Below, one piece after another: positions 26,354 through 32,516 of a stretch of 64,000 bases of DNA. Position numbers and translations under genes: made by a program. This DNA is from an uncultured Rhodobacteraceae bacterium. GTDB lineage: Bacteria > Pseudomonadota > Alphaproteobacteria > Rhodobacterales > Rhodobacteraceae. The notes beneath the pieces are model-generated. The model worked only from the letters and a program-made list of their open reading frames with translations, was not told where the DNA came from and searched no databases. The stretch lies in contig CANMEQ010000001.1 in assembly GCA_947497065.1 (NCBI GenBank), positions 198,208 through 262,207 of the forward strand, written 5' to 3'. Position 1 is the first letter of the stretch; each line of letters opens with the position of its first letter.

Positions 26354-26384
26354 GTAACGTGTGATTAACCATTGTTACCTTAAG
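26354..26384 (+). promoter_or_regulatory. Probable CtrA autoregulatory site in the ctrA promoter
   Basis: GTAA-CGTGTGA-TTAAC at 26354-26369 (one mismatch to TTAA-N7-TTAA) plus a further TTAA half-site at 26380-26383. Confidence 0.6.
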
Positions 26385-26418
26385 TTCGTTTTAGACATCG
26401 ATTGAGCGGAGAAGCGTA

Positions 26419-27138
26419 ATGCGCGTATTGCTAGTAGAAGACGACCCCTCGACGGCCAAAAGTATCGAATTGATGCTCAGCCACGCGAACTTAAATGTAT
26501 ATACAACCGACCTTGGCGAGGAAGGAATCGATCTCGCGAAGCTGTATGACTATGATCTCATCTTGCTTGATATCAACCTGCCGGACATGAACGGACACGA
26601 AGTATTGCGTCAGTTGCGCCTCAGCCGGATTGATACGCCGATCCTGATTTTGTCGGGCGAAGATGGGACCGAAAGCAAACTCAAAGGCTTTGGGTTCGGT
26701 GCTGATGATTACATGACCAAGCCTTTCCACCGCGAGGAGTTGGTTGCACGCATTCATGCCATTATTCGACGCTCTAAAGGGCATGCACAATCGATTATCA
26801 AAACGGGATCAGTTGCGGTCAATCTTGATGCGAAAACGGTCGAAGTCGACGGCGCGCCAGTACACCTGACAGGGAAAGAGTACCAAATGCTGGAGCTTTT
26901 GAGCCTGCGCAAAGGCACCACGCTGACCAAAGAGATGTTCTTGAACCATCTCTACGGCGGCATGGATGAGCCTGAATTGAAAATCATCGATGTTTTCATC
27001 TGCAAACTCCGCAAGAAATTGAGCGAAGCTGCGAACGGTGAAAATTACATCGAGACGGTTTGGGGACGTGGATACGTCTTACGTGACCCGGAGCCTGTCG
27101 CAAGCATGAACCCTGAAAAGATTGCAATCGGCGCTTGA
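26419..27138 (+). CDS. ctrA: Cell-cycle master response regulator CtrA
   Basis: [77 protein letters not shown]. Confidence 0.97.
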
Positions 27139-27255: not shown

Positions 27256-31613
<4,358 letters not shown>

Positions 31614-31641
31614 GGTGATTTGGAACATTTTGTTCACTTTT

Positions 31642-31656
31642 GTTCTCAAAAAGTTC
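31642..31656 (+). promoter_or_regulatory. LexA (SOS) box, alphaproteobacterial type
   Basis: GTTC-TCAAAAA-GTTC is an exact GTTC-N7-GTTC. Extra half-sites at 31623 (GAAC), 31632 (GTTC), 31680 (GAAC-N7-CAAC), 31700 and 31713. Confidence 0.75.
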
Positions 31657-31661
31657 TTGCT

Positions 31662-31676
31662 TTAACGTCTGGTTAA
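31662..31676. promoter_or_regulatory. CtrA binding site
   Basis: TTAA-CGTCTGG-TTAA is an exact TTAA-N7-TTAA. Confidence 0.72.
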
Positions 31677-31722
31677 TGAGAACAAAGGGGCAACAAAGAG
31701 AACATCATCGAGGAACAGCACA

Positions 31723-31845
31723 ATGGCACAAGAGATCAAAAGCGTAATCGCAAGATCTTCCGACACACTTATCGCAGATGCGATCGGCGTGGTAAGCCTG
31801 ATGGTGATGTTGTTTGGTGCGCTCGCTTTGCCCAGTTTCTTCTAA
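31723..31845 (+). CDS. Putative 40-aa small membrane protein (below the ORF-track cutoff)
   Basis: MAQEIKSVIARSSDTLIADAIGVVSLMVMLFGALALPSFF*; GAGGA SD upstream; one C-terminal hydrophobic helix. Confidence 0.72.
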   Translation: MAQEIKSVIARSSDTLIADAIGVVSLMVMLFGALALPSFF

Positions 31846-32009
31846 CTGCCTGCTGCGTTTTGTGCGGTGAACCAGATCATCTGTCCCAACTCCGGTGTTT
31901 TCCCAAAACGCCGTTTGATCTGACTACGTCCGACACTGCCTGTCTCGACCAAATACGGGAGCCTGCCTTTCCCGATATGCCACCGGTCCCAACATAAAAC
32001 GCATTTCTG

Positions 32010-32053
32010 CCGCTGCTTTCCACTGTCCCGGAAAGCAGCGGTTTTTTCTTTTT
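32010..32053 (+). terminator. Rho-independent terminator
   Basis: 12-bp perfect stem CCGCTGCTTTCC / GGAAAGCAGCGG, 8-nt loop, then TTTTTTCTTTTT. Confidence 0.85.
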
Positions 32054-32063
32054 AATGAGGTGT

Positions 32064-32516
32064 TTACGCAGACTTTGCGTTCTGCGCGTTGGCCATGGCT
32101 TCCAATGTCGCGTCAAAGGCCAACATGATCGACATATGTCTGTTTTTATACTCAGCCGCTGGGCCCAAAACCTCAAGCGCATCAAAAGGTGCATCCGGTG
32201 CAGGTCCACCAGATTTCAACATGGACAGCAATTGGTCACGACCGGTTTGCACCTCGTCTTGCGTGCGGCCGATGATGTTTTGCCCCACCACGGCAGCCGC
32301 AGCTTGCCCCAATGCGCAGGCTTTAACGTCCTGACCAAAGGCGGTCACTTTGCCGTCCGCCACGTTAACGTCCACGGTCACAGTTGACCCACATAGGGGC
32401 GAACGCCGCTTCGCTGTCGCGTCGGGCTCCTCCAATCGTTGACTGTGAGGGATATCAGCGGCAAGCCCGAGAATGCGTGTAGAGTAGAGTTTGATCAGGT
32501 CGCTATCAGCGGACAT
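32064..32516 (-). CDS. NifU/IscU N-terminal-like Fe-S scaffold family protein
   Basis: LIKLYS.RIL.LAA, SPLCGSTVTVD, VKACALGQAAA, NRHMSIMLAFDA. Confidence 0.82.
   Translation of the reverse strand: MSADSDLIKLYSTRILGLAADIPHSQRLEEPDATAKRRSPLCGSTVTVDVNVADGKVTAFGQDVKACALGQAAAAVVGQNIIGRTQDEVQTGRDQLLSMLKSGGPAPDAPFDALEVLGPAAEYKNRHMSIMLAFDATLEAMANAQNAKSA

What the first reader, a model, noticed from the sequence alone, without database searches (positions are those of the whole stretch)
31623..31716. Composite LexA + CtrA operator in the gap after recG
Seen: within ~95 bp there is an exact GTTC-N7-GTTC (31642-31656) and, 5 bp later, an exact TTAA-N7-TTAA (31662-31676). These are followed by GAAC-N7-CAAC (31680-31694), with more GAAC/GTTC half-sites on both sides. 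A TTGCTT hexamer (31657-31662) between the two boxes could be a -35. Established: these are the alphaproteobacterial LexA and CtrA consensus sites. Inference: a promoter that integrates DNA damage with cell-cycle state, sitting in the ctrA-ligA-recG neighbourhood.
Basis: partly seen in the sequence, partly recalled or inferred. Interest (0 to 1): 0.68.

Follow-up and report, generated by a model that had tools for sequence, protein, structure and literature searches.

The report
SOS-repressed promoter after recG
The gap after recG holds a promoter bracketed by two DNA-damage (LexA) repressor sites, kept almost unchanged across the Rhodobacteraceae, that drives an unannotated 40-residue membrane protein and a structured RNA tail; the proposed cell-cycle (CtrA) site is a perfect match here but is not conserved.

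Summary

**LexA: strongly supported.**
- A weight matrix built from seven other SOS promoters of this genome ranks box 1 (31642-56, + strand) 10th genome-wide. Box 2 (31680-94, read on the - strand) ranks 11th.
- The core TGTTC-N7-GTTCTT-N18-TGAGAACAA occurs exactly once per genome in 210 of 300 genera of the family. It occurs in none of 149 other alphaproteobacterial families.
- In 141 of 147 loci it lies directly after recG.

**What it is.** It is a promoter:
- The -35 hexamer (TTGCTT here; TTTACA or TTGACA elsewhere) abuts box 1.
- A 17-bp spacer ends in an invariant TGA.
- The -10 (GAACAA) and the likely start site lie inside box 2.

**What it drives.**
- A conserved 40-aa single-helix membrane ORF (31723-31845).
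- A roughly 200-nt folded 3' region ending at the terminator (32009-42).

**CtrA: uncertain.**
- TTAACGTCTGGTTAA is one of only seven such palindromes in the genome, all non-coding.
- The full box survives in only 7 of 21 congeners, and its columns evolve like neutral spacer.
- In 16-22% of other genera, GTTAA sits at a different fixed register.

No binding or expression data could be obtained.

The parts
29514..31613 (+). recG, ending 10 bp before the first half-site. No terminator-like hairpin lies between it and the operator.
   Evidence: ORF list. tblastn places recG directly upstream of the operator in 141 of 147 loci. The terminator scan finds none on the + strand between 31613 and 31700.
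31629..31637 (+). Upstream third half-site, TTTGTTCAC. Its GTTC (31632-35) is 6 nt from box 1.
   Evidence: These columns were not fixed by the search pattern and are 88-93% conserved across 142 distinct operators. The lexA promoter of this genome has a similar three-GTTC array.
31642..31656 (+). LexA box 1, GTTCTCAAAAAGTTC, abutting the -35 hexamer.
   Evidence: Scores 19.3 bits and ranks 10th genome-wide with a matrix trained on seven other SOS promoters. Invariant in 29 of 29 orthologous promoters that were retrieved through the ORF rather than the motif.
31646..31652 (+). Conserved T-N-AAAAA tract inside the box 1 spacer. Possibly an UP-element-like contact at about -46 to -40 (inference).
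   Evidence: Four of the seven columns are 90-94% conserved (the other three 50-80%), although the N7 spacers of the other SOS boxes in this genome vary.
31657..31662 (+). -35 hexamer, TTGCTT.
   Evidence: Orthologues carry TTTACA (81), TTTACT (18), TTGCAT (15) or TTGACA/TTGACC (4) at the same position. The distance to the TGA-GAACAA block is fixed.
31662..31676 (.). CtrA-consensus palindrome, TTAACGTCTGGTTAA, inside the promoter spacer.
   Evidence: It is the only exact match in the window. It is one of 7 TTAAC-N5-GTTAA sites in the genome, all non-coding. Against a conserved role: the full box is in 7 of 21 congeners and these columns carry 0-0.3 bits order-wide.
31677..31685 (+). TGA followed by GAACAA: an inferred extended -10 element overlapping the first half of box 2.
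   Evidence: TG is invariant in 29 of 29 promoters retrieved through the ORF. The hexamer lies exactly 17 bp from the -35 hexamer. The consensus promoter scan found no standard promoter here.
31680..31694 (-). LexA box 2. It reads GAAC-N7-CAAC on the + strand and TTTGTTGCCCCTTTGTTCTCA on the - strand. It covers the -10 and the likely start site near 31692.
   Evidence: Scores 18.6 bits and ranks 11th genome-wide. AAC at 31692-94 is 99-100% conserved and C at 31691 is 91% conserved; neither was fixed by the search. The box is an exact GAAC-N7-GAAC in L026 and L029.
31710..31715 (+). Ribosome-binding site GAGGAA, 7 nt before the ATG.
   Evidence: Read from the sequence. GAGGA is conserved within the genus.
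31723..31845 (+). 40-aa ORF MAQEIKSVIARSSDTLIADAIGVVSLMVMLFGALALPSFF: a polar N-terminus followed by one C-terminal hydrophobic helix.
   Evidence: Present in 22 of 23 genomes of the genus and much of the family, and in no other family. A roughly 40-aa ORF with the motif R..T...D..G follows the operator in nearly all of 147 loci. Pairwise differences at codon positions 1/2/3 are 0.21/0.09/0.47. No Pfam or NCBIfam family matches. One database source names it 'hypothetical protein'.
31855..32002 (+). Structured 3' region. A closing helix pairs 31855-64 with 31993-32002 and encloses hairpins whose loops carry CUGUCCC or CUGCCU.
   Evidence: The consensus fold of 19 congeners has 40 pairs, 6 with compensatory changes. 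No Rfam family matches.
32009..32052 (+). Intrinsic terminator: a 13-bp stem with loop ACUGUCCC, then a T-tract.
   Evidence: Terminator scan. Conserved with compensatory GC-to-AU changes.

Best explanation
Positions 31629-31697 are a LexA (SOS)-repressed sigma-70-type promoter.

**Layout**
- Two LexA boxes in opposite orientation bracket the core promoter.
- Box 1 (31642-56), helped by a third GTTC at 31632, abuts the -35 hexamer (31657-62).
- Box 2 (31680-94, on the - strand) covers the -10 (GAACAA, preceded by an invariant TG) and the probable start site near 31692.

**Proposed mechanism**
- Bound LexA would block RNA polymerase at both ends of the promoter.
- RecA-stimulated LexA cleavage after DNA damage would release a transcript of about 360 nt.
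- That transcript encodes a 40-aa membrane microprotein (31723-31845) and carries a folded 3' RNA domain that ends at the terminator (32009-42).
- The most likely role of the microprotein is a damage-induced membrane effector. A division brake like Caulobacter SidA is my first choice, and a TisB-like membrane toxin is second.
- In this species the promoter spacer also holds a perfect CtrA palindrome. I treat it as a possible lineage-specific overlay, not part of the conserved design.

**Shown and inferred**
- Shown: the motif matches, the conservation, the synteny, and the coding signature of the ORF.
- Inferred: LexA binding, the promoter geometry and start site, induction by damage, and the function of the product.
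For: **Match to this genome's own SOS boxes**
- The matrix was built from the recA, lexA, uvrA, uvrD, imuA-imuB-dnaE2, mmcB and nrdJ/DUF1489 boxes.
- Box 1 ranks 10th and box 2 ranks 11th of about 6.5 million positions.
- Ranks 1-7 are the training sites and rank 8 is a second, inverted box at recA.

**Conservation**
- 29 of 29 promoters found through the ORF keep both boxes while the spacer drifts.
- At least 120 Rhodobacterales species carry the core.
- 210 of 300 genera have exactly one copy, and the reversed control pattern gives 0.
- 0 of 149 other families have it.

**Columns not fixed by the search pattern**
- GTTC at 31632-35 is 88-93% conserved.
- CAAC at 31691-94 is 91-100% conserved.
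- The -35 hexamer is 78-83% conserved.

**Geometry and downstream unit**
- The -35 hexamer varies only among -35-like sequences, and its spacing is fixed.
- The downstream ORF is conserved and shows purifying selection.
- recG lies directly upstream in 141 of 147 loci.
Against: - There are no binding, start-site or expression data.
- The proposed -10 hexamer GAACAA is a poor match to the consensus, and the generic scan calls no promoter here.
- The invariant TG could be a LexA flank preference rather than an extended -10. recA also has GTTCTCA.
- Box 2 keeps a conserved mismatch, CAAC rather than GAAC.
- There is no terminator after recG, so read-through transcription may also reach the ORF.
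- The function of the product rests only on analogy.
Confidence: 0.8

Rival explanations
1. This is the first reader's model: a truly composite operator. CtrA~P binds TTAACGTCTGGTTAA (31662-76) in the spacer and, together with LexA, gates the promoter, so that expression depends on both DNA damage and cell-cycle or CtrA-phosphorelay state.
For: - The site is an exact TTAAC-N5-GTTAA, one of 7 in the genome, all non-coding. Other spacings give 0-3.
- TTAA-N7-TTAA occurs 19 times in non-coding DNA against 6 in coding, with a background of 1-7 at most control spacings.
- Two of the five sites in the window with at most one mismatch lie just upstream of ctrA itself.
- In other genera, GTTAA sits at a fixed position 11-15 nt from the start of the -35 hexamer. 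This is seen in 26 of 119 operators and in 23 of 142 operators in a one-per-genus sample, where shuffles reach at most 6.
- That arrangement gives TTTAC-N5-GTTAA overlapping the -35 hexamer.
- Overlap of predicted LexA and CtrA sites at other promoters has been reported for Dinoroseobacter shibae (PMC6473078).
Against: - The full box is present in only 7 of 21 congeners. Its first-half columns (0.58 bits) are no better conserved than neighbouring spacer columns.
- Order-wide these columns carry 0-0.3 bits.
- The recurrent GTTAA in other genera is 5 bp out of register with the site here and needs a mismatched TTTA half. That variant is not enriched in this genome.
- TTAA-N6-TTAA is almost as enriched as N7 (17 against 19), so AT-rich repeats in non-coding DNA are not a clean CtrA signal.
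- The AA of the second half-site coincides with an A-rich stretch conserved in all genera.
- The genes next to the other six palindromes are mostly not classic CtrA targets.
Confidence: 0.3
2. The GTTC/GAAC array is bound by a regulator other than LexA. Alternatively, the 9-bp inverted repeat TTTGTTCTC...GAGAACAAA acts as an RNA hairpin at the 3' end of the recG mRNA.
For: - The two arms are perfectly complementary in this genome.
- No other terminator follows recG.
Against: - Both boxes were predicted by a matrix trained only on recognised SOS genes.
- The stem would be AU-rich with a 30-nt loop and no T-tract.
- The left arm differs (GTTCTT or GTTCCT) in many species while the right arm stays the same, so pairing is not maintained.
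Confidence: 0.04
3. The motif cluster is a chance pile-up with no function.
For: GTTC-N7-GTTC on its own occurs at the chance rate in the window.
Against: - The core is single-copy in 210 of 300 genera, and the reversed control gives 0.
- The boxes are invariant while the sequence between them drifts.
Confidence: 0.01

Closest known systems
Alphaproteobacterial SOS boxes (GTTC-N7-GTTC direct repeat), as described for Rhodobacter sphaeroides recA and the Caulobacter SOS regulon (from my own knowledge of that literature)
   Same: The repeat and the extended TGTTC flavour match the recA, lexA, uvrA, uvrD and imuA boxes of this genome. recA here also has two boxes in opposite orientation.
   Different: - The two boxes bracket the -35 and -10 with an invariant 23-bp gap.
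- A third half-site lies at N6 spacing.
- The N7 spacer is a conserved A-tract.
- Box 2 carries a conserved CAAC deviation.
- The target is an unannotated microprotein gene, not a repair gene.
sidA of Caulobacter crescentus, a LexA-controlled gene for a 29-aa inner-membrane division inhibitor. Functional analogues include YneA, SosA and ChiZ (PMC4211646; other titles listed)
   Same: A very small single-helix membrane protein behind a LexA-type operator in an alphaproteobacterium.
   Different: - No match to the 40-aa protein was found outside the family.
- No division phenotype is known.
- A long structured 3' RNA is attached.
tisB/istR-1 and dinQ/agrB of E. coli: LexA-controlled small hydrophobic toxins (from my own knowledge)
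   Same: A LexA-boxed gene for a small hydrophobic peptide on a highly structured mRNA.
   Different: - No antisense or antitoxin RNA was identified.
- The chromosomal position after recG is fixed family-wide. That fits a core gene better than a mobile toxin-antitoxin module.
CtrA boxes (TTAA-N7-TTAA), and the promoters predicted to carry both CtrA and LexA sites in Dinoroseobacter shibae (PMC6473078)
   Same: An exact consensus palindrome inside a LexA-controlled promoter, 5 kb downstream of ctrA.
   Different: - It is not conserved at orthologous promoters.
- It lies in the spacer at about -30 to -16, not over the -35.
- The D. shibae study lists no site for the unannotated 400-bp gap after its recG.

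Membership tests
Alphaproteobacterial LexA operator | GTTC-N7-GTTC direct repeat | tested here: met
   Box 1 is exact. Box 2 has one mismatch here and is exact in L026 and L029.
Alphaproteobacterial LexA operator | Resembles the boxes at recognised SOS genes of the same genome | tested here: met
   Ranks 10th and 11th genome-wide with a matrix trained on seven other SOS promoters.
Alphaproteobacterial LexA operator | Conserved at orthologous promoters | tested here: met
   29 of 29 promoters. 210 of 300 genera, single copy.
Alphaproteobacterial LexA operator | Overlaps promoter elements of a downstream gene | tested here: inconclusive
   The geometry fits (-35 abutting box 1, -10 and start site inside box 2). 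No start site is mapped, and the generic scan finds no promoter.
Alphaproteobacterial LexA operator | LexA binding and induction by DNA damage | not testable with these tools
No experimental data were found in the literature searched.
CtrA box | TTAA-N7-TTAA consensus | tested here: met
   Exact at 31662-76. One of 7 TTAAC-N5-GTTAA sites in the genome.
CtrA box | Conserved at orthologous promoters | tested here: not met
   7 of 21 congeners. 0-0.3 bits order-wide. A CtrA-like GTTAA in 16-22% of other genera lies in another register.
CtrA box | CtrA~P binding or CtrA-dependent expression | not testable with these tools
   No data available.
SOS-induced small membrane division inhibitors (SidA-like; a functional class) | Small single-pass membrane protein under LexA control | tested here: met
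   40 aa with a C-terminal hydrophobic helix. LexA control is inferred from the operator.
SOS-induced small membrane division inhibitors (SidA-like; a functional class) | Blocks division through the late divisome | not testable with these tools
   Needs over-expression and deletion phenotypes.
Type I toxin-antitoxin (TisB/IstR-like) | Cognate antisense or antitoxin RNA | not tested
   No search for an antisense transcript was possible without RNA data.

The most novel reading that the evidence does not exclude
The recG-proximal module is the missing DNA-damage checkpoint of the Rhodobacteraceae. It would be a promoter gated tightly by two LexA dimers and, in some lineages including this one, also by CtrA. 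It would produce a dual-function RNA. The 40-aa membrane protein would arrest division or membrane function, and the folded, C-rich-loop 3' domain would act as a regulatory sRNA.
Probability: 0.2. Interest if true: 0.8.

Novelty: new member of a known kind. Interest (0 to 1): 0.6.

Why it matters
No SOS-induced division inhibitor or small membrane effector turned up for the Rhodobacteraceae in the literature I could search. That family includes the Roseobacter group, Rhodobacter and Paracoccus.

This operator marks a single-copy, family-wide gene that is usually unannotated. It appears to be one of the most tightly LexA-guarded targets in the genome, and it sits 5 kb downstream of ctrA.

It offers a short, well-defined DNA fragment and a 40-aa product for direct tests of how DNA damage is coupled to the cell cycle in these bacteria. 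LexA and CtrA are already known to interact there in the regulation of gene transfer agents (PMC6473078).

Tried and rejected
**Searches that found nothing**
- Rfam search of 31400-32300: only a sub-threshold PhrS hit, 15.8 bits against a gathering score of 37. Rejected.
- Consensus promoter scan: no promoter called. The -10 is non-canonical, so I relied on comparative geometry instead.
- Pfam and NCBIfam on the ORF: no family.
- Literature searches for LexA/CtrA in Dinoroseobacter, SidA-like inhibitors in Rhodobacter, and R. capsulatus LexA: none mention this locus.

I used a DNA pattern scan instead.

**Corrected error**
- My first alignment mixed strands, because genome-search loci are not oriented. 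I redid it.

**Alternative promoter placements, rejected**
- -10 in the A-tract of box 1, or at GTTAAT: no conserved -35 lies at a workable distance.

**GTTAA as a degenerate LexA half-site, rejected**
- It is out of the 11-bp register with box 1, and A replaces the key C.

**Validating the CtrA motif through its neighbours**
- I checked the genes next to the other six TTAAC-N5-GTTAA sites. Apart from a LuxR-type regulator, they are not classic CtrA targets. This gave no support.

Full report
**1. Observation**

- GAAC at 31623.
- GTTC at 31632.
- GTTC-N7-GTTC at 31642-56.
- TTGCTT at 31657-62.
- TTAA-N7-TTAA at 31662-76.
- GAAC-N7-CAAC at 31680-94.
- GAAC at 31700 and 31713.

recG ends at 31613.

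Taken singly, GTTC-N7-GTTC is not unusual. The window has 2 matches, and shuffles give 2.4. TTAA-N7-TTAA is rare, with 1 match against 0.12 expected.

The cluster as a whole is exceptional. There are seven GTTC/GAAC tetramers in 94 bp against about 0.75 expected. Only four other places in the 3.25-Mb genome reach seven or more in a 94-bp window.

**2. What the operator controls**

- Seven nucleotides after a GAGGAA ribosome-binding site, an ORF of 40 codons begins (31723-31845).
- A homology search finds it in 22 of 23 genomes of the genus and in many genera of the family. It has no internal stops, and it is absent from every other family tested.
- Pairwise differences at codon positions 1/2/3 are 0.21/0.09/0.47. 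The other two frames mostly contain stops. It is therefore a real coding gene.
- The product has a polar N-terminal half and one C-terminal hydrophobic helix. R11, T15, D19 and G22 are nearly invariant, and a conserved L-x-L-P lies near the end.
- It matches no Pfam or NCBIfam family. Where a database source names it, the name is 'hypothetical protein'.
- Downstream of the ORF, about 200 nt are conserved in the genus. They fold into a closing helix, internal hairpins with CUGUCCC or CUGCCU loops, and a strong terminator at 32009-42. Some pairs show compensatory changes.
- No Rfam family matches this region.

**3. The LexA reading, tested inside the genome**

Fifteen of the 87 GTTC-N7-GTTC matches in the genome fall in non-coding or 5' regions. 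Their neighbours include these genes:
- recA
- lexA
- uvrA
- uvrD
- the imuA-imuB-dnaE2 cassette
- an mmcB-type gene
- nrdJ/DUF1489

I built a weight matrix from those seven sites, excluding the site under study. Scanning both strands of the genome gave this ranking:
- Ranks 1-7 are the training sites.
- Rank 8 is a second, oppositely oriented box at recA.
- Rank 10 is box 1 (19.3 bits).
- Rank 11 is box 2, read on the minus strand as TTTGTTGCCCCTTTGTTCTCA (18.6 bits).

This promoter therefore carries two of the best LexA-type sites in the genome. An inverted pair has a precedent at recA. The lexA promoter likewise has a three-GTTC array, which resembles the extra half-site here at 31632.

**4. 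Conservation**

*Promoters found through the ORF.* Aligning 29 orthologous upstream regions retrieved through the ORF avoids any bias toward the motif. The following are invariant, while the spacer between them drifts:
- TGTTC at 31641-45.
- GTTCTT at 31653-58.
- TG and GAACAA at 31677-85.
- AAC at 31692-94.

*Wider scans.*
- In 141 of 147 loci the operator sits directly after recG. ligA and ctrA lie further upstream in 33 of 35 loci long enough to show them.
- In a one-genome-per-genus sample, 210 of 300 genera have exactly one copy. The reversed control pattern gives none.
- None of 149 other alphaproteobacterial families has it.

*Columns the search pattern did not fix.*
- The upstream GTTC is 88-93% conserved.
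- The AAAAA tract in the box 1 spacer is 90-94% conserved.
- The -35 hexamer is 78-83% conserved.
- CAAC at 31691-94 is 91-100% conserved.
- Conservation stops at about 31697. The half-sites at 31623, 31700 and 31713 are genus-level features only.

**5. Promoter geometry (inference)**

- The hexamer abutting box 1 is TTGCTT here. In orthologues it is TTGCAT, TTTACA, TTTACT or TTGACA, so it changes only among -35-like sequences.
- Exactly 17 bp downstream lies GAACAA, preceded by TGA. The TG is invariant.
- This fits a TGn-extended -10 whose hexamer is constrained by the LexA half-site.
- The start site would then fall near 31692, inside the fully conserved CAAC.
- Box 1 would block the -35 and UP region, and box 2 the -10 and start site.

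Caveats:
- The generic scan calls no promoter here.
- The TG could reflect a LexA flank preference, because recA also has GTTCTCA.
- No terminator separates recG from the operator.

**6. The CtrA reading**

*In favour.*
- The site is a full palindrome, TTAAC-N5-GTTAA. It is one of seven in the genome, and all seven are non-coding. Other spacings give 0-3.
- TTAA-N7-TTAA occurs 19 times in non-coding DNA and 6 times in coding DNA. Most control spacings give 1-7.
- Two of the five sites in the window with at most one mismatch lie just upstream of ctrA.

*Against.*
- Only 7 of 21 congeners keep the full box. The first-half columns (0.58 bits) are no better conserved than neighbouring spacer columns.
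- Order-wide these columns carry 0-0.3 bits.
- TTAA-N6-TTAA is nearly as enriched as N7, 17 against 19.
- The genes next to the other six palindromes are mostly not classic CtrA targets.

*An observation that is not explained.*
- In other genera, GTTAA sits at a fixed position 11-15 nt from the start of the -35 hexamer. This holds in 26 of 119 operators.
- It also holds in 23 of 142 operators of a one-per-genus sample. The next most frequent position-specific 5-mer there is GGTTA, the same element shifted by one base, with 13 instances. Shuffled spacers reach at most 6.
- Together with the -35 hexamer this reads TTTAC-N5-GTTAA, a near-CtrA box overlapping the -35. It is 5 bp out of register with the box in this genus.
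- Some factor that recognises GTTAA has therefore been retained at this promoter in a minority of lineages. CtrA is the obvious candidate, but this is not shown.

My estimates:
- About 0.3 that CtrA truly co-regulates this promoter in this organism.
- About 0.15 that CtrA control is an ancestral, conserved feature of the operator.

**7. Literature**

- The D. shibae network study predicted overlapping LexA and CtrA sites at several promoters (PMC6473078).
- Its gene table shows recG (Dshi_1510) followed by a 400-bp gap with no annotated gene. Its binding-site tables list nothing there. The module would have been invisible to an analysis based on annotated genes.
- Searches for a SidA-like inhibitor in Rhodobacter found nothing.
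- Earlier notes from this scan on the ORF and on the 3' region agree with my results, but they are not independent evidence.

**8. Verdict**

- This is a genuine, family-wide, single-copy, double LexA operator embedded in a promoter.
- It drives an unannotated microprotein gene with a structured RNA tail.
- It is a new member of a known kind of element.

Noticed in passing
window 31846-32052: The roughly 200 nt after the small ORF fold into a closing helix (31855-64 paired with 31993-32002), internal hairpins and a terminator. The loops repeat CUGUCCC or CUGCCU. Six pairs show compensatory changes among 19 congeners. There is no Rfam match. It may be a 3'-derived sRNA or an mRNA-control domain.
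   Followed up: partly
window 26354-26394: Two CtrA-like boxes with one mismatch each (GTAACGTGTGATTAA and TTAAGTTCGTTTTAG) lie 25-65 bp upstream of the ctrA start codon at 26419. This is consistent with ctrA autoregulation.
   Followed up: no
genome C1:152015-152056 (outside the window): recA also carries two LexA-type boxes in opposite orientation, 12 bp apart. One is exact, and the other reads GTTC-N7-GGTC.
   Followed up: partly
genome C2:429670-429684 (outside the window): The best-scoring LexA box in the genome sits upstream of an imuA-imuB-dnaE2 mutagenesis cassette. The first ORF there looks mis-framed in my crude gene calls.
   Followed up: partly
whole genome: TTAA-N6-TTAA is almost as enriched in non-coding DNA (17 non-coding, 4 coding) as the canonical N7 spacing (19 and 6). 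Most other spacings give 1-7. The cause is unknown.
   Followed up: no
window 31691: The second half of box 2 is CAAC rather than GAAC in 91% of species. This is a conserved departure from the LexA consensus. It may tune repression, or it may be dictated by the start site.
   Followed up: no
window 32052-32066: A CtrA-like site with one mismatch (TTAATGAGGTGTTTA) lies just after the terminator, at the 3' end of the convergent NifU-like gene.
   Followed up: no
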